From: an uncultured virus (IMG/VR IMGVR_UViG_3300042197_001183)
Taxonomy: Duplodnaviria; Heunggongvirae; Uroviricota; Caudoviricetes
Length of the DNA: 20,000 nucleotides
IMG/VR virus record: IMGVR_UViG_3300042197_001183
Strand: one strand, 5' to 3'
Position 1 is the first letter of the stretch; every line of letters starts with the position of its first letter. Below, one piece after another: positions 3,891 to 19,431 of this stretch. Position numbers and translations under genes: made by a program. The notes beneath the pieces are model-generated. The model was not told the origin of the DNA. It worked only from the letters and a program-made list of their open reading frames with translations, and searched no databases.

Positions 3891-6800
3891 ATGAAAGTTA
3901 AAAAGAGAGATGGGTCATTAGAAGAAATGAGATATGACAAAATCACAAGAAGAATTCAAAATTTTTGTGACGATTTAAATCTTGAATATATTGACCCCAC
4001 ATGGATAACACTTAAAGTAACGCAAGGTATATACGATGGTATATCAACAACGGAATTAGATGTATTAGCAGCGGAGACCGCTGCCTCTCTTGTTACTTCT
4101 CATTCAGACTATGCAAAATTAGCTGGTAGATTGGCAGTATCTAATTTACACAAAACAACACCAAAGAAATTCTCTCAATCAATAAAAGAATTACATTCTT
4201 TTGTTGAACCAAAAACAAACAAAGAATCTTCGTTAATATCTAACGAAACATATTCATTTGTTCAACAATATAAAGATGTTTTAGATGGTGCCATTGTTCA
4301 AGAAAGAGATTTTGATTTTGATTATTTTGGTTTTAAGACATTAGAACGTTCATATCTATTGAAGATTGGTAATCGTATTGTTGAAAGACCGCAATACATG
4401 TATATGAGAGTTGCTGTTGGTATTTGTAATAACGACATTGAAAACGCTTTAAGGATTTATGATGATTTATCTCAACATTTTTATACCCACGCAACTCCAA
4501 CATTATTTAATGCGGGAACACATAGACCACAAATGTCATCCTGTTTTTTGATTGGTAATAAAGGTGATGATATTGATGGTTTATTTGACACAATAAAAGA
4601 TGTTGCAAAAATATCTAAATGGGCGGGTGGTATTGGTTTACATGTTCACGATGTAAGAGGTAAGGGTGCGTATATTAAAGGGACGGGTGGTGAGTCAGAT
4701 GGTTTATTACCGATGATGAAAACATACAACGAAGTTGCTCGCTGGATTAATCAATGTTTTACACCTGACACTTTATTATACACCAGTGAAGGTGTAAAAA
4801 GAATGGACGAATTACGAAATGGTGATTTAGTATTAACTAAAGAAAGAAAATATTCCGAAGTAGGTGAGGTTTTAGTTTATCACCAAAATGGTGGAATGAT
4901 TGAGATTGAAACCAAATCAACCTTAAAACCACTAAGGTTAACAGATTCACATCCGTTGTTTGGGTTTAAGAATACATATAGTAGAATATCTAGAGAAAAT
5001 AGTGAATTTCTTAATCAATTAGAAAAGGGTATTGTGACCCCTGATTGGATTGATAGTGGTGAATATAAAGTTGGTGATTTTATCGGTAAACCAATCCCAA
5101 AAGAAATTATTGATGTTGAAGATTTCACAGAAGACGACGCGTTTATTTATGGGTTATTATTGGGTGATGGTCACATTAGTAGAAAGGAAGTGGGTATATC
5201 ATTTAATAAAATAACTAACGAAAACGAAGTTAATTTTGTTAAAGACTATTTAACTAAAAAAGGTATAAATTTTTGGGAACACAGTTCAGATGAAAGACCA
5301 TATTTAAATGTGAGATTTTCATTATCTAAATTATCGTGGTTATCATATGAGTTACTTTATAATGATAAAAAAGAGAAAAGGATTCATTTAAAATATTCAC
5401 ATTTACCTTTAAATAAATCAATTAGAATTATTTTAGGGTTAATTAAATCGGACGGAGGTGTTTATAGAAAAAATGAAATACATTTCTATAACACTAGTGA
5501 ACTATTAATTGAAGGTATGTCATATCAAATACTTAGATTTGGCGTTCCAACATATGGGGAATGGAGGGTTAGAGAGAATAATAGTGTTTATTTAAAAGAA
5601 AATGGTTGTAATAAAGAAAATACCTTATCGTGTGATTTAAGAATACCATCATTCAAAGAATTATCTGATTTGTTGAATATTGAACAAGTGACTAAGAAAA
5701 ATTGGATAATATGGGATAATATTCTTTATACTAGAATCACAAGTATAAAAATGTTAGATGATTATGATGGAAAAGTCTACGATTTAAAAATTAAAGAAAA
5801 TAGCGATGACCCATCATATACTCTGACCAGTTGTTTAGTTCACAATGGGGGAAAAAGACGCGGTTCATTTGCTGTTTATCTCGAACCATGGCACTCAGAT
5901 GTATTTGAGTTTATTGAATTAAGAAAAAACCATGGAAAAGAAGAATTAAGAGCCAGAGATTTATTTTTAGCGATGTGGGTTCCTGATTTATTTATGAAAA
6001 GAGTGGAACAAGATTTAGATTGGTCATTATTTTCACCAGATGAAGCACATGGATTATCCGACGTGTACGATGACCCGTATTTGTTTACTCAAGAATTTAC
6101 TGAACTTTATGAAAGATATGAGAAGGAAGGTAGAGCAAGAAAAGTCGTAAAGGCTAGAAAATTAATGGATGCCATTTTGACCGCACAAATTGAAACGGGG
6201 GTACCTTATATGTTGTATAAAGATGCTGCTAATTACAAGTCAAACCAAAAGAACTTAGGTACAATTAAATCATCTAACTTGTGTATAACAGGTGACCAAA
6301 GAGTGGTGACAACAAAGGGTTACTTAACAGCTAAAGAATTGTGTGAAATGGATGTGGAATTAGAACTTTTTAATGGTTCTGAAATTGTCAAATCATCCAA
6401 AATGATTAAACGAGGTGAAAATGAAGATGTTTATAAAATAACATTAGAAAATGGTATGGAACATAAAGTAACACCATATCATGGAATACCTGTAATTGAC
6501 TCAAGAAATAATATAACACGTATTGAATGTAAGGATTTAAAAATAGGTGATAAAATACCAATACAAATTAATAAAGGATTGTTTGGTTCAAAAGAAATGG
6601 TAGATGAGTCCTTTTTATTGGGTTTATATCAATCAGATGGTACGCAAAACAAATCATCAATTTTATTTGATTTATGGGAAAATGATTTTGATTTAGTTGA
6701 AGAGATTGAAAACAAAATTCAAAAATTATATTCAAAATACGAGTATAAACCTAGATATTCAACTAAAGGTGGTAAATTTATAGATTGTGTTGTTTCATTT

Positions 6801-8492
6801 TCTAAAGTAAAGAAAAAAAGATTATCTAGTGAATTTTTTAAAAAAGAATTACTCTTTGAAAAGGGATATGTACCCGAATGGATTTGGTCTTCAAATGAAG
6901 AAACGCAATGGTCTTATTTGCGGGGTTTATTATTTGCTGATGGAACAGCTAATAAAAATAAATCAAAAGGAGAACCAATACAAATAAGTTATGCCGACAT
7001 AAATATTGATTTTTTAAAAGAACTTCAATTAATTTTTCAAAATTTAGGTCTTCAAACATCTATTAGATTGTTAAGAAATGGAGGTCAACGGTCATTACCA
7101 AATGGTAAAGGTGGATATTCACTATACAAAACAAAAGATTGTTATAGATTAATTGTTGGTAATAAAAATGACTCACAAAAAATAAATGAAAAAATAGGGT
7201 TTCTTGATAGAAAAAACATAATCATTGACAATCGTGAATTTCGGGATAATACGAAAAAGGGATATAAAGTAAAATCCATAGAATATGTGGGTAAAGAAGA
7301 TGTTTATTGTCCAACAATTTATAATGATGAACATATTTTTATTTCACAAGGATTAAAAACATTTAATTGCACTGAAATTCTAGAATTTTCTTCTTCAGAA
7401 GAACAAGCGGTTTGTAATTTAGCATCTATTGCTTTACCAAAATACATTGTTAATAAAGATTTTAGTCACGAGTTACTTTATGAATATGTATATCAAGTAG
7501 TAAAAAATTTGAACAATGTTATTGATTTGAATTTTTACCCAACAGACGAAACGAAACTTTCGAATATGAGACACAGACCAGTTGGTTTAGGTGTTCAAGG
7601 ATTGGCCGATGTTTTTTGTATATTGAAAATACCATTTGAAAGTGAAGAAGCGAATAAATTACAGGTTGAAATATTTGAAACAATGTATTTTGCAGCATTA
7701 TCATCGTCAAAAGATTTATCAAAAGAAAATGGACCATATTCATCTTATGAAGGTTCGCCAATTTCTAAAGGTAAATTTCAATATGAACTTTGGGGTAAAA
7801 AAGATGAAGACACTAGTGGTAGATGGGATTGGAAATTTTTAAGAAATGAGATTTTAAACCATGGTGTAAGAAATTCTCTTTTAATTGCCCCAATGCCAAC
7901 GGCATCTACCGCTCAAATTTTAGGTAATAACGAAGCCTTTGAACCTTTTACCTCTAATCTCTATTCAAGAAGAACATTGGGTGGTGAATTTATTGTAATC
8001 AATAAACATTTGGTTAATGAATTATTAGAAAGAGGGTTATGGTCTGACGATATAAAGAAAAAACTAATAATGGAAAATGGTTCAGTACAAAACATACCAG
8101 AAATTCCTGTTGATGTAAAAGAAATTTATAAAACTGTTTGGGAGATGTCACAAAAAAGAATTTTAACAATGGCAGCTAACAGGTCAATTTATATTGACCA
8201 ATCCCAGTCATTAAATTTATTTATCGATAATGCTAGTAAAACAAAAGTTATGGCCGCTCATTTATATGGTTGGAAACTTGGATTAAAAACGGGTATGTAC
8301 TATCTTAGAACTAAGGCAGCCGTTGACCCAATTAAGGGTTTGGGTATTGATACTTCGTCTTCAAAACCAAATGTTGAAAATCATACAAACAATGTTAAAG
8401 AACAAAATTTAACAAGTAATTATGTTGAAGAAATGGTTTTATCGATTAAACCAAATGATTCACCATTTGAATGTGAAGGTTGTGGTTCATAA
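3891..8492 (+). CDS. nrdA: ribonucleoside-diphosphate reductase class Ia alpha subunit; 1533-aa precursor with two inteins (807 aa if both are removed)
   Basis: N-terminal ATP cone (VKKRDG), ATPTLFNAG, QMSSCFL, NL|CTEI catalytic motif, AVCNLAS, APMPTASTAQ, GMYYLRT, C-terminal CEGC. Confidence 0.97.
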   Translation: MKVKKRDGSLEEMRYDKITRRIQNFCDDLNLEYIDPTWITLKVTQGIYDGISTTELDVLAAETAASLVTSHSDYAKLAGRLAVSNLHKTTPKKFSQSIKELHSFVEPKTNKESSLISNETYSFVQQYKDVLDGAIVQERDFDFDYFGFKTLERSYLLKIGNRIVERPQYMYMRVAVGICNNDIENALRIYDDLSQHFYTHATPTLFNAGTHRPQMSSCFLIGNKGDDIDGLFDTIKDVAKISKWAGGIGLHVHDVRGKGAYIKGTGGESDGLLPMMKTYNEVARWINQCFTPDTLLYTSEGVKRMDELRNGDLVLTKERKYSEVGEVLVYHQNGGMIEIETKSTLKPLRLTDSHPLFGFKNTYSRISRENSEFLNQLEKGIVTPDWIDSGEYKVGDFIGKPIPKEIIDVEDFTEDDAFIYGLLLGDGHISRKEVGISFNKITNENEVNFVKDYLTKKGINFWEHSSDERPYLNVRFSLSKLSWLSYELLYNDKKEKRIHLKYSHLPLNKSIRIILGLIKSDGGVYRKNEIHFYNTSELLIEGMSYQILRFGVPTYGEWRVRENNSVYLKENGCNKENTLSCDLRIPSFKELSDLLNIEQVTKKNWIIWDNILYTRITSIKMLDDYDGKVYDLKIKENSDDPSYTLTSCLVHNGGKRRGSFAVYLEPWHSDVFEFIELRKNHGKEELRARDLFLAMWVPDLFMKRVEQDLDWSLFSPDEAHGLSDVYDDPYLFTQEFTELYERYEKEGRARKVVKARKLMDAILTAQIETGVPYMLYKDAANYKSNQKNLGTIKSSNLCITGDQRVVTTKGYLTAKELCEMDVELELFNGSEIVKSSKMIKRGENEDVYKITLENGMEHKVTPYHGIPVIDSRNNITRIECKDLKIGDKIPIQINKGLFGSKEMVDESFLLGLYQSDGTQNKSSILFDLWENDFDLVEEIENKIQKLYSKYEYKPRYSTKGGKFIDCVVSFSKVKKKRLSSEFFKKELLFEKGYVPEWIWSSNEETQWSYLRGLLFADGTANKNKSKGEPIQISYADINIDFLKELQLIFQNLGLQTSIRLLRNGGQRSLPNGKGGYSLYKTKDCYRLIVGNKNDSQKINEKIGFLDRKNIIIDNREFRDNTKKGYKVKSIEYVGKEDVYCPTIYNDEHIFISQGLKTFNCTEILEFSSSEEQAVCNLASIALPKYIVNKDFSHELLYEYVYQVVKNLNNVIDLNFYPTDETKLSNMRHRPVGLGVQGLADVFCILKIPFESEEANKLQVEIFETMYFAALSSSKDLSKENGPYSSYEGSPISKGKFQYELWGKKDEDTSGRWDWKFLRNEILNHGVRNSLLIAPMPTASTAQILGNNEAFEPFTSNLYSRRTLGGEFIVINKHLVNELLERGLWSDDIKKKLIMENGSVQNIPEIPVDVKEIYKTVWEMSQKRILTMAANRSIYIDQSQSLNLFIDNASKTKVMAAHLYGWKLGLKTGMYYLRTKAAVDPIKGLGIDTSSSKPNVENHTNNVKEQNLTSNYVEEMVLSIKPNDSPFECEGCGS
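4755..5846 (+). mobile_element. intein 1 in NrdA (C289-N652, 364 aa) with LAGLIDADG homing endonuclease; +1 residue is Gly
   Basis: Starts CFTPDTLL; block B LTDSHPLF; LAGLIDADG helices YGLLLGDG and LGLIKSDG; block F KVYDLKI; ends LVHN. Removal restores RWINQ-GGKRRGSFAVYLEPWH. Confidence 0.93.
6282..7367 (+). mobile_element. intein 2 in NrdA (C798-N1159, 362 aa) with LAGLIDADG homing endonuclease; +1 is the catalytic Cys
   Basis: Starts CITGDQRV; block B VTPYHGI; LAGLIDADG helices LGLYQSDG and LRGLLFADG; block F DVYCPT; ends KTFN. Removal restores KSSNL-CTEI. Confidence 0.95.
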
Positions 8493-8501
8493 GAACAATC
8501 G

Positions 8502-8579
8502 TGGGTGACCCCCTTAATAGTCAAGGATAACCTTGAGCACCTAATCGTTTAGTCATACAGGGGGTGAAAACTAAACGAT
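8502..8579 (+). ncRNA. candidate structured RNA with pseudoknot, family unassigned (strand inferred)
   Basis: TGGGTG 8502-8507 / CACCTA 8538-8543; TCAAGG 8521-8526 / CCTTGA 8531-8536; ATCGTTTAGT 8544-8553 / ACTAAACGAT 8570-8579; ACCCCCT 8508-8514 / AGGGGGT 8559-8565 in the loop of the last stem. Confidence 0.6.
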
Positions 8580-8583
8580 ATAT

Positions 8584-8614
8584 AATCCCATCGAATTCTC
8601 GATGGGATTTTTTT
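8584..8614 (+). terminator. intrinsic (rho-independent) terminator closing the replication/RNR unit
   Basis: 11-bp perfect stem AATCCCATCGA (8584-8594), loop ATTC, TCGATGGGATT (8599-8609), running into a T7 tract at 8608-8614. Confidence 0.88.
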
Positions 8615-8656
8615 ATATGTATAATACATGAAAAAATTTTTTGGTCTAATGGTTAT

Positions 8657-8685
8657 TTTGATTGTTTAATGTGAACTTAGATTTG
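8657..8685 (+). promoter_or_regulatory. possible Bacteroidota-type housekeeping promoter (-33 TTTG / -7 TAnnTTTG)
   Basis: TTTG 8657-8660, 17-nt spacer, TAGATTTG 8678-8685, upstream of the gp25-like gene. The spacer is shorter than the usual 19-21 nt. Confidence 0.35.
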
Positions 8686-11043: not shown

Positions 11044-14000
11044 ATGCAAAAACATAGAATATCCACAAATATTGGAAGAGACCAAAAGGTGGTTGTTGAA
11101 TTAAAAAACGATTTTGACCTTTTAGAGATTCTGTCTTTAAAATTTACTCAAACAGAAGCATACACTTCTATGTGTTCTGACTACGGAGTTGTTTGTGGTA
11201 GAATATTTGTAAACAATGGTTTTGGTATTCCAAATGCGAGAGTTTCTATTTTTATCCCCATTTCTGATGATGATGTAAATGACCCAGTAATATCTTCATT
11301 ATACCCATATACATCGATAAACGATAGAAATGAAGAAGGTTATAGATATAATTTACTCCCAAGTAGACAACAACACGGGGGTCATGAACCAACAGGAACA
11401 TTTCCTGACCAATTGGATATTTTAACAAGAGAAGAAATTTTAGAGGTATATGAAAAATATTATAAATACACCGCAAAAACAAATGATGCTGGTGATTTTA
11501 TGATATGGGGGGTACCTGTTGGTACACAAATTGTACATGTTGATGTTGATTTATCGGATATCGGTTGTTTTTCCTTAAGACCCGATGATTTTATTAGACA
11601 AGGTAAGGGTGTTGATAATTTTAAAAATACATATTCATATAAATCATCTGAAGACTTAGATTCATTACCTCAGATAATATCTTTTAATCAAACGATTGAA
11701 GTTTATCCTTTTTGGGGAAATGAAGATTTATGTGAAATTGGGATAACAAGAACCGATTTTGATTTATCAAGTCAAGGTGTAAAAATTGAACCCAAAGCGT
11801 ATTTATTGGGTTCAATTTATTCCGACCAAGGTAAAAATACTTTAAACAAAAATTGTCTACCAAGAAGTGCTATGGGTAGAAAGTGTGATTTAACAACTTT
11901 TGCCGCAGAGATTGAAATGATAAGATTCACTTCTTCAAAAGATTCATTGGGTAGACCAATATTAGAAACGTATCAAATAGAAGAAGACGTAGACGAAGAC
12001 GGTTCGTTTGTGATTCCGTTACCCATGAACATGGAATATCAGTACACAAACGAATTTGGTGAAACAGAAATTACAAATGACCCAAATAAGGGTATACCAA
12101 CGTCAGCGTGTTATAGATTTAGAATTTCAGGTAAAAACAATACACTAGGTAGAGTTAGATTTACCGGTAGTTATTTATTACCAAATATACGAGAATATAA
12201 TTCTGATGTTGATGGTTCATACGCGTTCTCTTTAGATTGGAACGATTACCCAACTGATTCCACAACTAATTCTGTAATTTTTAATCAGACATATGGTAGT
12301 TATTACCCTGAAGATTATTTTTTTAGATTCACATACAATAAAGTGTACACGGTAAGTTCGTACATGGGTAGTCACTTTAAAGGCGGTAAAGGCAATTATA
12401 TTGGTATAAAAGACATATCACCAAAAGAAGAAGAGGATTGTGAATCAAGTATAGTTACACCACCAATTAATTACGGGTGGAGACGATTTAGTTTTTCCAT
12501 TTTACTGGCAACTGTAATTAGTATATTCGAAAGAATAATATACGGGGCATTTATTGGGGCGATACAGGTATTAATATTACCATTTCAGTTTCTCATCGAT
12601 AATGGTAGAATATTTATTAGTGCGTTTGGGATAACCCTTATTGATTGGAATCCATTTTTGCGTTTTGATTCATTGGTTATTGAACCGTTGCAAAGATTTG
12701 GAACGGTTAATTTATCAATTGTTGTTTATCCTGAGTGTGAAACTTGTGAAGATTTTTCGAGTGAACAGGTGTTAATTCCCAGTGAAAGACCTGATGAACT
12801 TTATTGTAAAGTTGGAGAAGGAACCGCTGTTAGAGACACTTTAGATATTTATGGTTCACCACATATACCGATATGTGACCCTAATAATACAATTGATGAG
12901 TTTATTATGTTGTCATCTGGTTCAACTTTAGCCTCATATAATTTTACCGGATTAACATGTGGTGGCAATACTGTGGGGCAATCGTTGAATTTCATATACA
13001 ATACCTCTAATTTACCAATTAGTGGTAGAACATATTATATAGTTTTAAAACAGTATTTACCACATGGAAGTGCAGATTCTTGGGAAATTAGTAGATTAAA
13101 TACTTTAGAAACAGACACATATGCACAATTAACCATTGACCAATTTTCTTGCTCGCCACCTAACAGTGGGTATGTTGGAACAATTAATAATAATTTTGGA
13201 TGGTTAGTCTATCGATTGGGTAATGATGGTATACTCCCCCAATATGACTATCCATGTCCATGTCCTAATGACGATTGTTTTGATGGTCGATGGTGTATTA
13301 GTGATAATTATTTATTACCCTTTTCACAACCGGCTTGCGCGTCTGGTCAAACCCATAATGGAACTTGTGATTGTAGCGACATAAATTCTCTTGCTCCTAC
13401 TACTACAAGTATTACGTTTACCGATGCTATTTGTGCAACAATATATGATTATGTTTTATTTTATCACTCTAGTATAAAAGATTGTGATGGAACATCAGTT
13501 GAGACAATACTTGATGACCCTAGCACTATGATATTATCATCAGGAGATTACTCAAATGTAGTAACAAAAAGCGCTGGAACAATATCTAAAGGATTATCCT
13601 ATATGGTTGCCTTTTATTATTCAATACCTTCTGGTTACACCGCGTTATCTAATGTGAGAATGTCTATTGGTGACGCATCAATAGGTGAATGTTCCTATGG
13701 TGTTTATGATATACCAACACCGGTAAACAATAAATGGTATGTGTTACGTGTTGATATATCTGACATCGAGGCCTACGGTAATTTAACATCTTATATTTCA
13801 ACATCAAGCTGTATGAATTATGCTATAGGTTGTTCTGGACCATCGTCAGCAACCAATTCTTGTTGTTATAGTTCAATAAGTGGTGATAGTGTTGGTAATT
13901 CATCTATAAGAGATTTTCAATGGACAGGGTTTACTTACGAAATATATGATTCTTCTCTTAAATTGTCTCAACAAGTTTTAACAGGTTCAACCGGTGATTT

Positions 14001-15675
14001 ATCTTTAGGTTGTAACACACAGAATACAATATACGATGAAACACTTGTGCAACAAACGTATTGTGCCTCAAATATTAATGCTGATTATAATGACACAGGT
14101 TTAGTAACGGTTCAAAACGGAACATCGTGCACAAATCTATTACCTGTTGGACAAATATCATATAACACAAATAATAACCCTTGTTCAACTTGTAGTACTA
14201 GAAGTGGGTTTTCAGAATTTAGAAGGGGAACGTATACCATTATTCCCGCAGCTGCAACATCAAATTGGTTATACAATTTTAAATTGATAAGAGAATACGC
14301 CAGAAGAAAATTAGTTAATAAAGTTTTTTGTGAAGGGGTTGTAAATTATTCATTTATTGAAAATTGGTTAGCGGGTTCACTTTATTTATTTGCTTTTAAA
14401 GGTAGAGTTAGATGGGATAATGAGGAAAATTTAGTTTTAAATGTCAGAGGGACAAATTATTGTGAAGATTTGTTGTATTATAAAGTAAGTGAAAAATCAT
14501 CAGGTGACCCCGTTAAAAGATTTTACTATAGGTCAACAAAATGGAATGGTTCATCCTTTCAGTCAACACAAAATAATGGTGGAACAACGTTTAGTACCCT
14601 AAGACACCCAACTACAATTATGGATTTAGGACCAAGGGATGAATTTATAAAAGAAATATGTATTGACCCATCTTTGGACCCTAATTGTTCAGTCGTTAGG
14701 AATATTGGACCAACGTCTTTTCAAAACTTCAAAGAAATTTTTGGACTATATATTAACTATAGACTAGATACCAATAGTACATTTGAATATAGAGATTTTT
14801 TTCAAAACAACGGATTTAATTCGTATTTTCCATTTTTAATAGCAATGGGGCTAATTAATACAACAAAAGAAATATTAAATGGTGATATATTACAACTTAT
14901 ATCTATAAATAGTGAAGCTGGTGTAGAAGAATTTGATTTACAGAATAGATATTACGGACAATATAGTCCATTAATTATAGACCCAGACACATATTCTCAA
15001 TTATTTAGTTCACAAGCAGGAACACCAAATGGACCCATACCAATAAATTTCGTACTGGATGATGATGGATATAGGGTAAGAGTTTGTTTAAATGAACCAG
15101 GAAGATTAACTGAGTCATCTCAAATTGTTCCATTTTTTTATTGGGACAAACAAGGAGAGGGTTTTGGTGAAGGATATAATCAATCATGGGATTATAATAC
15201 TATAAGAACACATAGATTACAAGGAATGACATTTAATTATGCTTTTATAGGTGACACAACATATAACTATGTGTTATTTCCGATGACGAAAACATATTCG
15301 GGAAATACTTTTGACATTGTTGGTGCTGATGTAAACGACGGTTCATTTGACGTTGAGGACACAACCGATGTTCATTTACAATACAATAACCAAGAAGAAG
15401 GATTTACAGTTTTACACATTACTTCGGGGTCTACGTCTAATCCAATTGCGGGAATATTATGGATTAGAAAAGGTGATACGGGTGTATGGGATTCACAATC
15501 ATGGAACAACAATATTGATTATATATTAAAACCAACATTAAAAAATTACACAGGTGATTTACAAATATTATCGACACCATTTTTATTTTATTTTGGAATT
15601 CGACCAGGTAAAACCGCAGTGGATAAATTTGTCCAATTGTTTGGACCTAAAGACGCGTTTCCAACAGTTGAATAA
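11044..15675 (+). CDS. large putative virion (baseplate/tail-associated) protein, 1543 aa
   Basis: Follows the baseplate genes. The N-terminus resembles a carboxypeptidase-regulatory/transthyretin-like beta sandwich (GRIFVNNGFGIPNARVSI...KTNDAGDFMIWGVPVG); then a hydrophobic segment at aa ~482-535 and a Cys/Ser/Thr-rich middle. Function is inferred from context. Confidence 0.7.
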   Translation: MQKHRISTNIGRDQKVVVELKNDFDLLEILSLKFTQTEAYTSMCSDYGVVCGRIFVNNGFGIPNARVSIFIPISDDDVNDPVISSLYPYTSINDRNEEGYRYNLLPSRQQHGGHEPTGTFPDQLDILTREEILEVYEKYYKYTAKTNDAGDFMIWGVPVGTQIVHVDVDLSDIGCFSLRPDDFIRQGKGVDNFKNTYSYKSSEDLDSLPQIISFNQTIEVYPFWGNEDLCEIGITRTDFDLSSQGVKIEPKAYLLGSIYSDQGKNTLNKNCLPRSAMGRKCDLTTFAAEIEMIRFTSSKDSLGRPILETYQIEEDVDEDGSFVIPLPMNMEYQYTNEFGETEITNDPNKGIPTSACYRFRISGKNNTLGRVRFTGSYLLPNIREYNSDVDGSYAFSLDWNDYPTDSTTNSVIFNQTYGSYYPEDYFFRFTYNKVYTVSSYMGSHFKGGKGNYIGIKDISPKEEEDCESSIVTPPINYGWRRFSFSILLATVISIFERIIYGAFIGAIQVLILPFQFLIDNGRIFISAFGITLIDWNPFLRFDSLVIEPLQRFGTVNLSIVVYPECETCEDFSSEQVLIPSERPDELYCKVGEGTAVRDTLDIYGSPHIPICDPNNTIDEFIMLSSGSTLASYNFTGLTCGGNTVGQSLNFIYNTSNLPISGRTYYIVLKQYLPHGSADSWEISRLNTLETDTYAQLTIDQFSCSPPNSGYVGTINNNFGWLVYRLGNDGILPQYDYPCPCPNDDCFDGRWCISDNYLLPFSQPACASGQTHNGTCDCSDINSLAPTTTSITFTDAICATIYDYVLFYHSSIKDCDGTSVETILDDPSTMILSSGDYSNVVTKSAGTISKGLSYMVAFYYSIPSGYTALSNVRMSIGDASIGECSYGVYDIPTPVNNKWYVLRVDISDIEAYGNLTSYISTSSCMNYAIGCSGPSSATNSCCYSSISGDSVGNSSIRDFQWTGFTYEIYDSSLKLSQQVLTGSTGDLSLGCNTQNTIYDETLVQQTYCASNINADYNDTGLVTVQNGTSCTNLLPVGQISYNTNNNPCSTCSTRSGFSEFRRGTYTIIPAAATSNWLYNFKLIREYARRKLVNKVFCEGVVNYSFIENWLAGSLYLFAFKGRVRWDNEENLVLNVRGTNYCEDLLYYKVSEKSSGDPVKRFYYRSTKWNGSSFQSTQNNGGTTFSTLRHPTTIMDLGPRDEFIKEICIDPSLDPNCSVVRNIGPTSFQNFKEIFGLYINYRLDTNSTFEYRDFFQNNGFNSYFPFLIAMGLINTTKEILNGDILQLISINSEAGVEEFDLQNRYYGQYSPLIIDPDTYSQLFSSQAGTPNGPIPINFVLDDDGYRVRVCLNEPGRLTESSQIVPFFYWDKQGEGFGEGYNQSWDYNTIRTHRLQGMTFNYAFIGDTTYNYVLFPMTKTYSGNTFDIVGADVNDGSFDVEDTTDVHLQYNNQEEGFTVLHITSGSTSNPIAGILWIRKGDTGVWDSQSWNNNIDYILKPTLKNYTGDLQILSTPFLFYFGIRPGKTAVDKFVQLFGPKDAFPTVE

Positions 15676-17435
15676 TGGATAAGAAAAAAATAATATTACC
15701 ATCTAAAAAATTTTTTGGTTCAACAAATATAGACCAAAATATTAGAATTGGTTTGGATGAAAGTCGAAACTTATTAAGAGAGGGTGACAGAAATGTTATA
15801 TTAAATAATGTTGAGTTATTTAATAAAGAAAGAAACGAAAGTAATAGTTACAAAATTCATGGAAAAATAAAAATGGTTTTCAGGAATTTATATAGTGGTA
15901 ACACTGATTATGAACCACTTTTGGAAAAACTTTATTTAGTTGGTGATGGTGGAGACAATAATTTTAATGGATTTATACCATATGATGAATTCGCTTTTCT
16001 CAGAAAAGATGTTATAAGACAATCTAATTCAATACAAACACTATCTTCAATAACCACATACACCCCTTCAATATCTTATAGTGGTGAATCAAAACACGTT
16101 TCGATATCTAGTATAATGGCACCATATCACAATTGGAACATTCACTTATCCTATGTTTATGACCATGACACAAACTACCCAATGAAATATACTTTAAGTG
16201 GTAATACTGCATTTAGTTTTGTGTCAGGAGACGGGATACCTTTTAGAGTTCAAGATAATGGTAGAACATATAAATTAACTAGTCCTGTTGAACACGGAAT
16301 ATCCGCTGGTGAATATATCACAATAAGTGGTGGCACATTAAACAATTCAATTGCTGCAAGTGGAAGAACATTTTCTGTTGTTTCTGTTGGTGATTCTATT
16401 TTTAGGTCTGAAAAATTTGTGTTGGATATATCAAAATCAGAATTACCATCGGGTACCACTTTATCAACTGTGGTATTTGGTAAAAGATGTATTGATAAAA
16501 ATAATTTAACAGGAACCACTTCAACTTACTATGTTCATAAACATAAAACACTAACAGAGAAAAGCGATTATATTTTGGACAAAGTAGGGTTCGAATCACC
16601 AATTTGGGAAAATGAAAGAAAACTTCTATTAGAAAATAGTGCGGGTGTTAGTGATTATTTAGTGGAAAGAAATATGATGGAATCTTTAGTTTATGATTTT
16701 AAAGAACCATTTGTATTAACCGGTTTAACCAATAATTTAAAATATCTACCTACTGAAATTTATGTAACCACTTTGTTATCAAATAGAAACGGATATTTTG
16801 ATTACCCACCAAAAGTGGGTTGGAAATTTAATTTCCATGATACATGGGTGGACCAACATTTTGATGGTTCAAGTAGTGTTGAAACCTCTATTCCAACTAC
16901 TGCTTTTACAACAACAATAAGTGGTGTAACTTATAGTTTTACAGGTGGTACAGATGTACCAGTGGGTACTATATTACATGGTGCCTTTGTTGAATATAAT
17001 TTATCAGAATTAAAAGAAAGGATTATTAGTGAGGCATATCATAGATTTTCGAATCCATTATTTGTTTTTGATTATGGTCAAACAGGCTCAACTGTGACTT
17101 TCTCTGGTGCATCGGCCACGAATAAATTTGGTTTATTTTATCAACCACACCATAGAATTAAATTAAGACAATTGTCACCATATATTGAAACATCAACAAC
17201 CAATCAAATTTATGGGTTACCTCAAAATGCGAAATATTTTGAAAACGATGGTTTATGGAAATGGAGAGATTTATATGACCATGGGTTTATTGATTCGGAT
17301 GGTTTTGGTACAAATTTTTCATTTATTAATGGTATTCATTATGTAAAAAATAATATTGATTTCTATTTAAGAAATGAGAACATATATAGAAACAAACAAG
17401 ATTTAGTTAAAAATATAGAAAGTTTTAAGTGTTAA
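15675..17435 (+). CDS. putative virion structural protein, 586 aa
   Basis: TAATG overlap with the previous gene; Ser/Thr/Gly-rich, beta-type composition; structural-module context. Confidence 0.65.
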   Translation: MDKKKIILPSKKFFGSTNIDQNIRIGLDESRNLLREGDRNVILNNVELFNKERNESNSYKIHGKIKMVFRNLYSGNTDYEPLLEKLYLVGDGGDNNFNGFIPYDEFAFLRKDVIRQSNSIQTLSSITTYTPSISYSGESKHVSISSIMAPYHNWNIHLSYVYDHDTNYPMKYTLSGNTAFSFVSGDGIPFRVQDNGRTYKLTSPVEHGISAGEYITISGGTLNNSIAASGRTFSVVSVGDSIFRSEKFVLDISKSELPSGTTLSTVVFGKRCIDKNNLTGTTSTYYVHKHKTLTEKSDYILDKVGFESPIWENERKLLLENSAGVSDYLVERNMMESLVYDFKEPFVLTGLTNNLKYLPTEIYVTTLLSNRNGYFDYPPKVGWKFNFHDTWVDQHFDGSSSVETSIPTTAFTTTISGVTYSFTGGTDVPVGTILHGAFVEYNLSELKERIISEAYHRFSNPLFVFDYGQTGSTVTFSGASATNKFGLFYQPHHRIKLRQLSPYIETSTTNQIYGLPQNAKYFENDGLWKWRDLYDHGFIDSDGFGTNFSFINGIHYVKNNIDFYLRNENIYRNKQDLVKNIESFKC

Positions 17436-18259
17436 TGAAAATTTTAGTAAAAGATACTGACCAAAAAATAATTTTATCGTCAAATCAAACATTTAAAACA
17501 GATTTGGGGTGGACTGATAGTGCACAACAAATGGAACAAGAAATATTGTACGATATTATAAACCCAACTGAAAATTACGAAACAACTAGATATATTCATT
17601 CACCATACTCTGTAACATCAACTAGCGGGACAACTTTTACACAAACAGATATATGGTATAATTTTTATTTTTTAAACAATGCCGGTGTTTATAACCAAAA
17701 TTATGAATCTGTTGATATAACATTAAGAGAAAATGCTAAAATGTTAAAACAATCAACTAAAAGTTTTTTTCGGTTGGAATTTTATAAAACATCAAATGAC
17801 GATTCACCAAATCAAACAAATAGAAGATTGGTTTTTTCAAAAAATTTAATACTTCCATTAGGTGAAAAAGTTTATTTTACAGGAACCCCATCGGGTTCAA
17901 CATTGCCTTTAAATGATTTTGTTTTTCTACCCGTCTTTACGGGTTCAAATTATAGAAACACTGAAAATATGTATTTCTTTTGGTTTTTAGATGACACACC
18001 ATTTAGTGAAACGAACATCACAGGAAATACTTTTTATATGACCGCAAAATTTTATAACGCTAAAGATGGTACGATTATCGATTTTGTAAATAAACAAAAA
18101 TCTGTTGGTCAAGAAATCATAGAGGAACAGGATATCTATTATAAAGTAATTATTGATAGGTCCGATTATTCTTATATTGTTTATCAATACAATGGTTCAT
18201 TGGGCTCAAGGAATGGAGTACTTAATTCTCCAATAAATTTTTATGAAAGAAGACAATAA
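17435..18259 (+). CDS. putative virion structural protein, 274 aa
   Basis: ATG at 17435 overlaps the upstream TAA (TAATG) like its neighbours, so it is preferred over the GTG at 17429 in the ORF track. Confidence 0.65.
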   Translation: MKILVKDTDQKIILSSNQTFKTDLGWTDSAQQMEQEILYDIINPTENYETTRYIHSPYSVTSTSGTTFTQTDIWYNFYFLNNAGVYNQNYESVDITLRENAKMLKQSTKSFFRLEFYKTSNDDSPNQTNRRLVFSKNLILPLGEKVYFTGTPSGSTLPLNDFVFLPVFTGSNYRNTENMYFFWFLDDTPFSETNITGNTFYMTAKFYNAKDGTIIDFVNKQKSVGQEIIEEQDIYYKVIIDRSDYSYIVYQYNGSLGSRNGVLNSPINFYERRQ

Positions 18260-19431
18260 TGGATATCAAACCACCTTTAAAATACGAAATACGTAGGAAA
18301 TCAATTCCTAATTTAAAGTTGTATGCGGTTGATAAACCATATTGGTTCAATAGTTTAGGTGGTTTACTTGAGTTAACAAATACAGATTTAATTGATTCTT
18401 TAGATGGTTATATCATTTATAATGTTACGGGTGGTACAGTTTCTTCAGGTTATTATATTTGGTCTGGCGCAACTTTAGACGGGGCATCCTATGGTGATAC
18501 TGATTGTGATTTAAGTTTAAAATTATATGAATGGGAAAACATATCAAAATCCGAAGCATACGATGACCACGACATTCCTCTTTTTTTAGAGAGTTCGGTT
18601 GACGAAATGGGAGTGATGGTTGGATTTGATGGTCAAATTGAACAAGTTGAACAAATATGTAATTTTTCATATACACAGACAGGTAACACAGTATATGTGT
18701 ATAACACAATAGATACCACAAAAGTATCTGAAATATATGATATTAATTTCATAGTTGATTGGGGAGACGGGACTTCTTCAATATTAACCGCTACAGGTAT
18801 AACTGCAAATAAAACATATTCGTCAACAGGTGTAACAACAATATCAATTTCAGTTAACACACCATGGACACAATTTGAAACAAAAAAGATAATTCAAATA
18901 CCTTCAAATACCACAGTTCCCAATTCATTGGGAACGTTTTCAGGTTTCACAATTCCATATAGCAATATAACTGGTCAAACACAGGACTATCTTAATGACT
19001 ATGATAGTGATTGTGATGGGACATATACGGGTAACACTATATTTTATTATGCTTCAATTGGTAAAAGTAGAATTAACGAAAAGAAACTCTATGGTGGTAA
19101 CACATATACGGGAGTGACAACAGGAATAACAAATAATTTGGTTTATAGTGCGTATACAATTGATGATTTATATTATCGAGATTTTGAGGATGGTGTCACC
19201 ACGATTACTGGTGCAACATCTGGTTTTACAAAAGAAGAAGTGATTAATTGTGTTATAACAAGAAACGAACATTTCTTAGGATTTATTGATGAACCTGTGA
19301 TATATTCGGATATTTTTGTTGAAAGAGGTAAACAAGGTGTTCTTGAAAAAACATTTAGATTATCTGAGATTGAAAATACAGGGGAATTATCGTATTATGG
19401 TAATGGATATTTTAATATTAGAAAACAATAA
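18259..19431 (+). CDS. putative virion protein with a PKD/Ig-like domain, 390 aa
   Basis: TAATG overlap; PKD-like signature FIVDWGDGTS...KTYSSTGVTTISISV. Confidence 0.7.
   Translation: MDIKPPLKYEIRRKSIPNLKLYAVDKPYWFNSLGGLLELTNTDLIDSLDGYIIYNVTGGTVSSGYYIWSGATLDGASYGDTDCDLSLKLYEWENISKSEAYDDHDIPLFLESSVDEMGVMVGFDGQIEQVEQICNFSYTQTGNTVYVYNTIDTTKVSEIYDINFIVDWGDGTSSILTATGITANKTYSSTGVTTISISVNTPWTQFETKKIIQIPSNTTVPNSLGTFSGFTIPYSNITGQTQDYLNDYDSDCDGTYTGNTIFYYASIGKSRINEKKLYGGNTYTGVTTGITNNLVYSAYTIDDLYYRDFEDGVTTITGATSGFTKEEVINCVITRNEHFLGFIDEPVIYSDIFVERGKQGVLEKTFRLSEIENTGELSYYGNGYFNIRKQ

What the first reader, a model, noticed from the sequence alone, without database searches (positions are those of the whole stretch)
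8502..8614. Compact pseudoknotted RNA between the nrdA stop and the terminator
Seen: within 78 nt there are four mutually compatible helices. P1 is 6 bp with one G-U; P2 is 6 bp with an AUAA loop nested in P1; P3 is a perfect 10 bp. A 7-bp pairing joins ACCCCCU in the P1-P2 internal loop to AGGGGGU in the 16-nt P3 loop. The element is GC-richer than its surroundings, starts 9 nt after the nrdA stop and ends 4 nt before a separate terminator, so it is not the terminator. The G-U pair in P1 favours the + strand. The topology loosely recalls ZTP (pfl) riboswitch architecture, but I do not see its conserved nucleotides nor the cores of hammerhead, twister, pistol or HDV-like ribozymes. Inference: an unassigned ncRNA, for example a small RNA or ribozyme processed from the 3' UTR, a nuclease-blocking element, or a switch controlling read-through from the replication genes into the baseplate genes. 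ATCGT at 8498-8502 could alternatively pair with ACGAT 8575-8579.
Basis: partly seen in the sequence, partly recalled or inferred. Interest (0 to 1): 0.7.

Follow-up and report, generated by a model that had tools for sequence, protein, structure and literature searches.

The report
New folded small RNA of giant phages
The flagged stretch is a real, tightly folded non-coding RNA belonging to a widespread and apparently uncatalogued family that large phages usually place among their tRNA and ribosome-rescue RNA genes; what it does is still unknown.

Summary
All four helices are at the stated coordinates, and the element is 43.6% G+C against 30.9% for the window. Folding energy alone is not significant (z -1.73); the evidence comes from relatives.

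A covariance model finds the element once in 72 of 81 sources around the gp25 gene and in 78 of 80 further phage contigs. P1, P2, P3 and the pseudoknot all keep pairing through compensatory changes. No Rfam 15 family matches.

The main result is context. Outside this clade the same core sits:
- flush between tRNA genes;
- behind its own promoter just ahead of a phage tmRNA;
- just after a tmRNA;
- or inside a tmRNA as an extra domain.

Jumbo phages carry one or two copies. It is therefore an autonomous RNA module. Here it is expressed as the tail of the ribonucleotide reductase transcript, and it is not a read-through switch or a nuclease block for nrdA.

Function is unknown. My best guess is a stable trans-acting RNA aimed at a conserved host factor, probably in translation. 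A new ribozyme or an aptamer remain possible.

Earlier notes of this scan describe comparable orphan RNAs in phage tRNA and tmRNA islands. One earlier window shares words with the commoner form of this family.

The parts
8490..8492 (+). Stop codon (TAA) of the 1533-aa class Ia ribonucleotide reductase large subunit gene (3891-8492), which carries inteins.
   Evidence: ORF list; Pfam Ribonuc_red_lgC, ATP-cone, Intein_splicing, LAGLIDADG_3 and Hint; sequence.
8499..8580 (+). Whole RNA element as matched by covariance model R1 (94.7 bits, E 1.1e-18).
   Evidence: The model was built partly from this sequence, so its own score is by construction. The independent evidence is the hits in relatives.
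8502..8507 (+). P1, 5' strand (UGGGUG).
   Evidence: Pairs with 8538-8543. The inner GGUG/CAUC is nearly invariant, and the outer two pairs covary: GU, GC, AU, CG and UA types, with 0 unpaired at the second pair.
8508..8514 (+). Pseudoknot, 5' strand (ACCCCCU), directly continuing from P1.
   Evidence: Pairs with 8559-8565. A-U to G-C, C-G to U-A, and U-G to C-G or U-A exchanges are seen in relatives.
8515..8520 (+). Conserved junction UAAUAG. In the family it reads UUAAUAGU or UUAAUGGU when the flanking bases are included.
   Evidence: Invariant or nearly so in alignments A2, A4 and A6. Part of this invariance in A4 and A6 comes from the search pattern.
8521..8536 (+). P2 hairpin (6 bp, loop AUAA; in most of the family the loop is CUGA or CCGA).
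   Evidence: 4 of 6 pairs and 5 of 6 pairs change on both sides.
8538..8543 (+). P1, 3' strand (CACCUA).
   Evidence: See P1 5' strand. The window has G-C where 58 of 59 distinct relatives in A4 have G-U.
8544..8553 (+). Closing helix P3, 5' strand (AUCGUUUAGU).
   Evidence: Pairs with 8570-8579. 5 of 10 pairs change on both sides in the window's clade. 40 of 90 unique family members close in this way.
8554..8558 (+). Conserved linker CAUAC, part of the family's (U)AUACA.
   Evidence: AUACA is invariant in A6. It reads AUAAA in several diverged members of the window's clade.
8559..8565 (+). Pseudoknot, 3' strand (AGGGGGU), inside the P3 loop.
8566..8569 (+). Conserved GAAA linker.
   Evidence: GAA is invariant in A6.
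8570..8579 (+). Closing helix P3, 3' strand (ACUAAACGAU).
   Evidence: Its last five bases could instead pair with 8498-8502.
8584..8616 (+). Intrinsic terminator: 11-pair stem, 4-nt loop and U tract. It gives the RNA its 3' end in this phage.
   Evidence: The stem sequence differs but the hairpin is kept in relatives.

Best explanation
The element is this phage's copy of a widespread, so far uncatalogued family of about 75-90-nt phage RNAs.

All members share one core:
- P1, with an invariant GGUG/CAUC.
- A 5-7-bp pseudoknot (GCUCCC/GGGGGC) that starts directly after P1's 5' strand.
- The junction UUAAUAGU.
- The P2 hairpin.
- The linkers AUACA and GAAA.

The core is closed in one of two ways. 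A helix may join the two ends of the RNA (P0), with a small hairpin P3 after P1. Alternatively, as in this window, a long helix after P1 encloses the pseudoknot's 3' strand.

Shown: the fold is under selection; the RNA reads on the + strand; the family is essentially confined to large phages; there are one or two copies per genome; and it is repeatedly placed in stable-RNA transcription units.

Inferred: the RNA is an autonomous module that needs only to be transcribed and trimmed. In tRNA arrays the tRNA-processing enzymes would trim it. In front of tmRNA, a promoter and RNase P would do so. In this phage it is the last 120 nt or so of the ribonucleotide reductase operon transcript, ended by the terminator at 8584-8616. 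It either stays on the mRNA or is released as a 3'-UTR-derived small RNA.

More speculative: about 30 near-invariant bases are kept across phages whose copies of the element range from 28% to 57% G+C. This suggests a pocket or surface for a factor conserved across bacteria. Because the RNA is linked with tRNA and tmRNA genes, and is grafted into tmRNA in some phages, the translation or ribosome-rescue machinery is the most likely target.

It does not regulate nrdA or read-through into the baseplate genes.
For: (1) Conservation. Model R1 hits once per locus, always on the gp25 strand, in 72 of 81 sources. It hits 78 of 80 loci found with an 18-nt pattern.

(2) Covariation.
- Type A alignment A6: 47 distinct sequences, 29 pairs, 96.2% of cells paired, 18 pairs changed on both sides, and 0 of 500 shuffles reach any measure. 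Sliding the partners drops pairing to 30-56%.
- A4: 59 distinct sequences, 96.7% paired, 0 of 500.
- Window clade A3: 28 distinct sequences, 88.5% paired, covariation score 0 of 500.
- Pseudoknot exchange table.
- Closing helix: mean longest helix 8.1 bp against 5.4 bp when 3' tails are swapped between sequences (maximum 5.8 in 200 trials).

(3) Strand. G-U in P1 (47 of 47) and U-G in the pseudoknot (47 of 47) are invariant.

(4) Context.
- Flush between co-oriented tRNAs, for example L131 with 5 and 13 nt gaps as measured from the regex core.
- 32 of 118 pattern loci have a tmRNA 5'-end-like sequence within 90 nt downstream. 28 of these also have a TTTG...TAnnTTTG promoter-like motif upstream. 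The tmRNA was verified in L099 and L140.
- Inside tmRNA genes in L092, L124, L161, L163 and L166.
- 52 nt after a tmRNA in the 636-kb phage LR756504.
- ARAGORN finds a tRNA or tmRNA within 200 nt, or enclosing the element, in 30 of 123 loci, all on the element's strand.

(5) Copy number. There is one copy in 4 of 5 jumbo phage records of 270-310 kb and two copies in the fifth. These phages carry 24-34 tRNAs, and 4 of 5 have a tmRNA match above cut-off.

(6) Independence from neighbours. In the window's clade the flanking genes change while the element stays. No protein family recurs next to it among 38 neighbouring ORFs scanned.

(7) Phage restriction. The 18-mer scan of 185,579 species genomes gave 56 loci, of which only 3 (L207, L235, L249) hold the RNA. 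By my reading of the flanks the rest are chance matches, most apparently within coding sequence.
Against: - No direct evidence of expression, ends or stability. The only RNA-library signal is a 62-nt assembled contig of another phage's copy, and contigs cannot show ends.
- No target is known, and linkage with tRNA and tmRNA genes may only reflect a shared need for strong transcription and processing.
- In the window's own clade some lineages are decaying. In 10 of 28 distinct sequences the pseudoknot is down to 5 pairs, AUACA is usually changed and P2 is partly degenerate. One group (L067-L071) keeps only the 5' half, with P2 followed by a T run. The RNA is therefore dispensable for some relatives.
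- The window's copy differs from the family at normally fixed places: both wobble pairs are Watson-Crick and the P2 loop is AUAA.
- On A3 two measures did not beat the shuffles: further pair types was reached in 500 of 500, and pairs changed on both sides in 19 of 500.
- A4 and A6 come from loci chosen with a pattern that fixes much of the pseudoknot's 5' strand. A3 to A5 are fitted to the model. The sequences are related to one another.
Confidence: 0.6

Rival explanations
1. A new class of self-cleaving (or otherwise processing) ribozyme that cuts the transcript it sits in. It would free tRNA or tmRNA ends in arrays, split tmRNA into two pieces when embedded, and here clip the tail of the reductase mRNA.
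For: - The commoner form has the strand order P1-5', PK-5', hairpin, P1-3', hairpin, PK-3'. As I recall them, this is the nested double-pseudoknot order of HDV-like ribozymes and of ZTP.
- HDV-like theta ribozymes are known to sit within 5 nt of phage tRNAs (PMC10879173, passages read).
- The family lies 2-6 nt after tRNA 3' ends in several loci.
- Its sporadic distribution across unrelated phages resembles that of small ribozymes.
Against: - No Rfam ribozyme model matches, even at E up to 10.
- The pair at the foot of P1 is not a conserved G-U: GU 22, GC 16, AU 8, CG 1 of 47.
- The only invariant C of the linker is not at its first position, where the theta ribozyme paper places the catalytic C. 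It is A in several window-clade variants.
- About 30 fixed bases is more than small ribozymes usually keep (recalled).
- A 7-13-bp P0 would hold a 5' cleavage product.
- Flush tRNA neighbours are already served by RNase P and RNase Z.
Confidence: 0.15
2. A small-molecule aptamer. It would be either a riboswitch whose read-out is the adjacent terminator, or a free RNA that soaks up a metabolite or a host signalling nucleotide.
For: - The degree and pattern of conservation resemble riboswitch aptamers: fixed junctions and pseudoknot, free stems.
- The topology is like ZTP (recalled).
- In the window a terminator follows 4 nt after the fold.
- Two nearly isoenergetic nested folds exist: -19.9 and -20.7 kcal/mol.
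Against: - Most members have no expression platform and no downstream mRNA: they lie between tRNAs, inside tmRNA, or are closed by P0.
- I saw no conserved pairing between the element and the terminator's 5' arm, whose sequence differs among relatives.
- No riboswitch model matches.
- No natural RNA sponge for a small molecule is known to me.
Confidence: 0.1
3. A purely cis-acting 3'-UTR element of the reductase mRNA: an exonuclease block, a helper of termination, or a switch for read-through into gp25.
For: Its position directly after the stop codon and before a terminator is kept in the window's clade. The stop-to-P1 distance is 2-9 nt.
Against: - The same core occurs in non-mRNA contexts.
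- In the L055 group the upstream gene is a class II reductase plus a DUF5522 ORF that reads into the element.
- In L001-L012 a GNAT gene, and in L002 a further 1.9-kb ORF, separates the terminator from gp25.
- A terminator hairpin alone already blocks 3' exonucleases (established knowledge).
Confidence: 0.07

Closest known systems
Small stable RNAs of unknown function in phage tRNA clusters
   Same: They are phage-encoded, non-coding, co-transcribed and processed with tRNAs, of unknown function and single copy.
   Different: I made no sequence or structure comparison, because no T4 sequence was at hand. The present family is not found in 50,697 GenBank phage records, apart from two uncultured huge phages. 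It also occurs in tmRNA and in a 3' UTR.
ZTP (pfl) riboswitch, Rfam RF01750
   Same: The strand order of the commoner family form matches, as I recall ZTP: P1, then pseudoknot strand in the P1-P2 internal loop, P2, a variable hairpin, and the 3' pseudoknot strand.
   Different: The covariance model gives no match at E up to 10. The element is not in a 5' UTR of purine or folate genes. In the window the pseudoknot's 3' strand lies inside the last helix's loop.
HDV-like ribozymes, including theta ribozymes of gut phages (PMC10879173)
   Same: The type A form has a nested double-pseudoknot strand order, and the element lies next to phage tRNA genes.
   Different: There is no model match. There is no conserved G-U at the start of P1. 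There is no C at the first position of the linker before the last pseudoknot strand. The hairpin is 5-6 bp with a 4-nt loop behind an 8-nt junction, in place of the short P3/L3 and P1.1 (recalled). The element is larger and far more conserved.
Pseudoknot domains PK2-PK4 of tmRNA (RF00023)
   Same: It is a compact pseudoknotted module. In five loci it lies in the pseudoknot string of a bona fide tmRNA, after the tag reading frame.
   Different: By my reading, it is an extra domain between a small H-type PK2 and PK3, not a replacement. It is not a simple H-type knot. No copy turned up within a bacterial tmRNA gene among the 56 loci of the 18-mer genome scan. Elsewhere it is a free RNA.

Membership tests
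Any Rfam 15 family (4227 models) | Covariance-model score at or above the family's gathering threshold | tested here: not met
   There were 0 matches in the window. Only tRNA and tmRNA matched in 21 related loci. In E-value mode the hits were noise: the best was 18.8 bits against a 49.5-bit threshold and was driven by the terminator. For a type A member the best was 15.9 bits.
ZTP (pfl) riboswitch | Match to RF01750, including its conserved core nucleotides | tested here: not met
   It is not among the hits at E up to 10.
ZTP (pfl) riboswitch | Cis-regulatory position in the 5' UTR of purine or folate metabolism genes, with an expression platform | tested here: not met
   The element lies after nrdA and before a terminator in the window. 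Elsewhere it lies between tRNAs or in tmRNA.
HDV-like / theta ribozymes | Nested double pseudoknot (P1, P2, P3 hairpin, P1', P4 hairpin, P2') | tested here: inconclusive
   This strand order is met by type A relatives. It is not met by the window, where the last helix encloses the pseudoknot's 3' strand. The definition is recalled.
HDV-like / theta ribozymes | Conserved G-U wobble at the first pair of P1 (cleavage site) | tested here: not met
   The outermost P1 pair is GU 22, GC 16, AU 8 and CG 1 of 47. The feature itself is recalled.
HDV-like / theta ribozymes | Catalytic cytosine at the first position of J4/2 | tested here: not met
   The feature is taken from PMC10879173 (passages). Here the corresponding linker is (U)AUACA, with C at the fourth or fifth position, and it reads AUAAAA in several relatives.
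HDV-like / theta ribozymes | Self-cleavage | not testable with these tools
   This needs an in vitro transcription and cleavage assay.
tmRNA pseudoknot domain | Lies within a tmRNA gene between the tag reading frame and the 3' tRNA-like part | tested here: not met
   There is no tmRNA in the window. The feature is met in L092, L124, L161, L163 and L166 only.
tRNA or tRNA-like gene | Cloverleaf recognised by ARAGORN or RF00005 | tested here: not met
   Neither tool calls the element in the loci scanned, while calling the flanking tRNAs.
Intrinsic terminator or attenuator | G+C-rich hairpin directly followed by a U tract; for an attenuator, a conserved alternative pairing with the terminator | tested here: not met
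   The terminator is a separate hairpin at 8584-8616. I found no conserved complementarity between the element and the terminator arms, which vary in sequence (by eye).
T4 species 1 / species 2 stable RNAs | Sequence or structure similarity to rnaC or rnaD | not tested
   I used no T4 sequence. A blastn search of GenBank phages with a type A member gave only two uncultured huge phages.

The most novel reading that the evidence does not exclude
A new class of phage RNA that plugs into the host's translation or ribosome-rescue system. It would be a self-contained, double-pseudoknotted module, working either free or grafted into tmRNA as a fifth domain. It would dock on the ribosome or capture a universally conserved host factor (or an immune signalling nucleotide) to keep phage protein synthesis running. 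Alternatively, it is a new self-cleaving ribozyme class with HDV/ZTP-like topology.
Probability: 0.25. Interest if true: 0.9.

Novelty: new member of a known kind. Interest (0 to 1): 0.72.

Why it matters
Large phages carry tRNAs and tmRNA to take over or protect translation. The extra stable RNAs in those gene clusters have stayed unexplained since the T4 species 1 and 2 RNAs.

This family is well suited to study:
- It is short, with a sharply defined consensus and about 30 fixed bases.
- It has two natural architectures of one core.
- It has natural fusions into tmRNA.
- It has natural decay and deletion variants.

Together these give a ready-made set of mutants for probing, binding and cleavage assays. 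If it binds a conserved host factor or ligand, or proves catalytic, it would add a new functional RNA class. It would also point to what giant phages need beyond tRNAs. For annotation, it explains a conserved G+C-rich gap that is otherwise easily mistaken for part of a terminator.

Tried and rejected
- **Known RNA families.** Rfam at gathering and E-value thresholds, on the window and on 21 related loci, gave nothing but tRNA and tmRNA.
- **tRNA or tRNA-like gene.** ARAGORN does not call the element.
- **Recoding signal for nrdA (read-through or frameshift knot).** I rejected this because the stop-to-P1 distance varies from 2 to 9 nt, I saw no slippery heptamer at the gene's end, and in the L055 group an ORF reads into the element.
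- **Shine-Dalgarno for a hidden ORF.** AGGGGGU or AAGGAGC is not followed by a start codon at a suitable distance (by eye).
- **Cellular homologues.** The 18-mer scan of species genomes gave 56 loci. Only 3 are real. By my own estimate about 140 matches would be expected by chance for that pattern, so the rest are noise.
- **Cultured phages.** blastn at E 0.01 found none. At E 10 it found two uncultured huge phages, and three 18-nt matches under annotated hypothetical proteins in Helicobacter phage records that I take for chance.
- **The window's own genome.** It is not held, and the nearest record (5.6 kb) has no match.
- **Expression.** The six listed runs hold only small shares. The four laid were contigs, which show no ends or levels. 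A 62-nt contig in two RNA-labelled libraries (one marked probably DNA) belongs to another phage's copy, so there is no verdict.
- **Conserved protein partner in cis.** None recurs among 38 neighbouring ORFs.
- **Literature.** Five full-text searches found no description of this motif. In PMC10690425 (10,006 candidate viral RNAs) I read passages and searched 6 supplement files without a hit. Three files could not be searched, so the family may be listed there anonymously.
- **Energy significance.** z of about -1.7 on either strand is not informative.

Full report
**1. The observation**

- The nrdA stop is at 8490-8492.
- P1 is 8502-8507 with 8538-8543, six pairs with one G-U.
- P2 is 8521-8526 with 8531-8536, with loop AUAA.
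- P3 is 8544-8553 with 8570-8579, ten perfect pairs and a 16-nt loop.
- The 7-bp pairing joins ACCCCCU 8508-8514 to AGGGGGU 8559-8565.

A separate intrinsic terminator follows at 8584-8609 plus a T run. The 78 nt are 43.6% G+C in a window of 30.9%, and only 1.4% of equal-sized windows are as rich.

The upstream ORF is a 1533-aa class Ia ribonucleotide reductase large subunit with inteins. The next gene is a gp25-like baseplate wedge protein.

Energy alone does not single the element out. The z-score is -1.73 on the + strand and -1.86 on the - strand, with 11 of 200 shuffles as good in each case. The energy minimum uses the pseudoknot helix as a nested helix, closed by the alternative AUCGU/ACGAU pairing. 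P1+P2+P3 (-19.9 kcal/mol) and that alternative (-20.7 kcal/mol) are nearly equal.

**2. Relatives in the same genomic place**

A search with the gp25 protein gave 80 IMG/VR loci. blastn found the element in 51 of them.

A covariance model was built from 21 distinct sequences with P1, P2 and P3. It found the element once per locus, on the gp25 strand, in 72 of 81 sources including the window. In 5 of those 72 it found only a 5' remnant.

On that alignment (28 distinct rows) 88.5% of cells pair. Sliding the partners drops this to 32-46%. The covariation score and the number of doubly changed cells exceed all 500 shuffles. P3 has 5 of 10 pairs changed on both sides, P2 has 3 of 6, and the pseudoknot has 2 of 7, plus a third pair that goes U-G, C-G and U-A.

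Two measures were not better than the shuffles. Further pair types was reached in 500 of 500, and pairs changed on both sides in 19 of 500. The alignment is fitted to the model and the sequences are related, so these figures lean towards the structure.

The pseudoknot exchanges are listed:
- ACCCCCU/AGGGGGU in the window;
- ACUCCCU/AGGGGGU;
- GCUCCCU/AGGGGGC;
- GUUCCCU/AGGGGAC;
- ACUCCCU/AGGGAGU;
- and a shortened GCUCC/GGAGC.

**3. The family is much wider and has a second architecture**

The 18-nt pattern GGTGRYTCCCTTAATRGT matched at least 118 viral contigs. The model hit 78 of the 80 loci fetched with full flanks.

Most of these are built differently. A helix P0 of 4-13 bp joins the two ends. 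P1, the pseudoknot's 5' strand, UUAAUAGU, P2 and P1's 3' strand follow as in the window. Then comes a small variable hairpin P3, which is absent in L112 and long in L128 and L136. After it come (U)AUACA, the pseudoknot's 3' strand, GAAA and the 3' strand of P0.

On a MAFFT alignment of 47 distinct sequences of this form (not fitted to a model), 96.2% of 1350 cells pair and 18 of 29 pairs change on both sides. That includes all 8 pairs of P0, 5 of 6 in P2 and 3 of 3 in P3. No shuffle reaches any measure, and sliding gives 30-56% pairing.

The G-U in P1 and the U-G in the pseudoknot are invariant (47 of 47), which fixes the strand. The pattern used for fetching fixes much of the pseudoknot's 5' strand, so its invariance in this set is partly by selection.

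Among 90 unique sequences with flanks, 42 close with P0, 40 close like the window and 8 are ties. The closing helix averages 8.1 bp against 5.4 bp after swapping tails between sequences.

**4. Where the family sits**

- **Between tRNA genes, on their strand and almost without spacers.** Examples are L131, L137, L168, L174 and L181 between tRNA-Gly and tRNA-Val or tRNA-Pro, plus L143 and L136.
- **At the head of a tmRNA transcript.** 32 of 118 loci have a tmRNA 5'-end-like sequence within 90 nt downstream. 28 of these also have a TTTG...TAnnTTTG motif upstream, which I recall as the Bacteroidota promoter consensus. The tmRNA was verified in L099 by Rfam and in L140 by ARAGORN.
- **Inside tmRNA genes.** In L124, L161, L163 and L092 (Rfam full-length matches) and in L166 (ARAGORN), the element lies after the tag reading frame. 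In L124 I read a small H-type PK2 before it and PK3 and PK4 after it, so it looks like an added domain. That tmRNA is 469 nt against 397 nt in L099. The pseudoknot assignment is by eye.
- **52 nt after a tmRNA** in the 636-kb uncultured phage LR756504.
- **After a reductase gene and before a terminator**, in the window's clade only (21 of 118 loci).

Five jumbo phage records of 270-310 kb, four of them with a tmRNA match above cut-off and all with 24-34 tRNAs, have one copy (four records) or two copies (one record). In the window's relatives G002 and G003 the tRNA arrays lie far from the element. No protein family recurs beside it among 38 neighbouring ORFs.

In cellular genomes the pattern gave 56 loci, and only three hold the RNA: a Ktedonobacter contig, and two candidate-phyla MAG contigs with tRNA or tmRNA. 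By my reading of the flanks the others are chance matches, most apparently in coding sequence.

**5. What this says about the window's copy**

The element cannot be a device specific to nrdA or to read-through into the baseplate genes.
- In L055-type relatives the upstream genes are a class II reductase and a DUF5522 ORF that reads into the element.
- In L001-L012 a GNAT gene sits between the terminator and gp25.
- In L002 a further 637-aa ORF sits there as well.
- The terminator's sequence varies while its hairpin is kept, and I saw no conserved anti-terminator.

The simplest reading is that the RNA needs only transcription and defined ends. Here the reductase operon and the terminator supply these.

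Some lineages of this clade are losing it: a shortened knot, a changed AUACA, a degenerate P2, and a 5'-half remnant in L067-L071. The window's own copy keeps the core but has Watson-Crick pairs at both normally wobble positions, and an AUAA loop.

**6. Function**

Nothing I could run shows what the RNA does. About 30 bases are fixed, in phages whose copies range from 28% to 57% G+C. That argues for a conserved partner.

The repeated linkage with tRNA and tmRNA genes, including grafting into tmRNA, points to translation or ribosome rescue. It could equally reflect only a shared need for strong transcription and processing.

The type A strand order equals that of HDV-like ribozymes and ZTP as I recall them, and theta ribozymes flank phage tRNAs (PMC10879173). 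However, the defining features tested here are not met (see the membership table). A ribozyme of a new class, or a ligand-binding RNA, cannot be excluded.

Whether P3 and the pseudoknot coexist in the window's architecture is open. The linkers are short and the nested alternatives are isoenergetic.

**7. Novelty**

No Rfam 15 family matches. Five full-text searches found no description. For the papers, I saw search listings, and passages of PMC10879173, PMC10690425 and PMC11915505. The supplements of PMC10690425 were only partly searchable.

Earlier notes of this scan report other unassigned structured RNAs in phage tRNA and tmRNA islands. One window (e1-5376346, a Bacteroidota giant lake phage with its own tmRNA) shares words with the type A form. 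I did not test those notes.

I therefore file this as a new family within a known but unexplained kind: stable RNAs that phages embed among tRNA genes, of which the T4 species 1 and 2 RNAs are the classic case (recalled).

**8. Limits**

- There are no raw-read expression data; one search gave contigs only.
- R-scape was not run.
- There is no 3D modelling.
- The alignments are biased by the search pattern or fitted to the model.
- The promoter, HDV and ZTP definitions are partly recalled.

Noticed in passing
window 8628-8669: There is a 13-codon ORF (ATGAAAAAATTT...) where close relatives have a 122-131-aa GNAT acetyltransferase gene between the terminator and gp25. A metagenome contig carries 354 other bases in place of window 8636-8667. 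The window's phage seems to have lost this gene.
   Followed up: partly
window 3891-8492: The reductase large subunit is 1533 aa. It has a Hint domain near residues 286-369, and an intein splicing domain with LAGLIDADG endonuclease near residues 822-1154, so it appears to carry two inteins.
   Followed up: no
L067-L071, e.g. L067:2081-2173: These loci hold a natural remnant of the RNA. P1's 5' strand, the pseudoknot's 5' strand, the junction and P2 are kept. A T run follows, so that P2 looks like a terminator, and the 3' half is gone.
   Followed up: partly
L055:2282-2527: An 81-aa DUF5522 ORF downstream of a class II (B12-type) reductase reads about 45 nt into the RNA element and stops in P1's 3' strand (CAUCUAA).
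   Followed up: partly
L124:1267-1735 (- strand); also L092, L161, L163, L166: These are phage tmRNAs of about 470 nt with the RNA element embedded after the tag reading frame (...ADLAVAA stop, my reading), between what I read as PK2 and PK3.
   Followed up: partly
L256:1421-1520: In the 462-kb uncultured phage LR756500 the conserved junction UUAAUAGU is replaced by a 31-nt insert, while P1, the pseudoknot strands, P2 and P3 are kept.
   Followed up: no
L112, 40 nt upstream of the element (locus 1524-1563, - strand): A tRNA D-arm-like sequence (AGCTCAACTGGACAGAGC) directly precedes an unusually long P0 (11 bp with one mismatch). Neither ARAGORN nor Rfam calls a tRNA there, so it may be a broken tRNA.
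   Followed up: no
L002:602-2515 (- strand): A 637-aa ORF with no Pfam match is inserted on the opposite strand between the terminator and the GNAT gene, in the closest relative of the window.
   Followed up: no
G006:C1:223690-223764 and 237214-237294: One 294-kb phage record carries two copies of the RNA in its tRNA region. The other four jumbo phage records searched have one copy each.
   Followed up: no
window 11044-15675 and 15675-19431: A 1543-aa ORF and the three following ORFs after the baseplate J-like gene have no Pfam match. They are probably further baseplate or fibre proteins.
   Followed up: no
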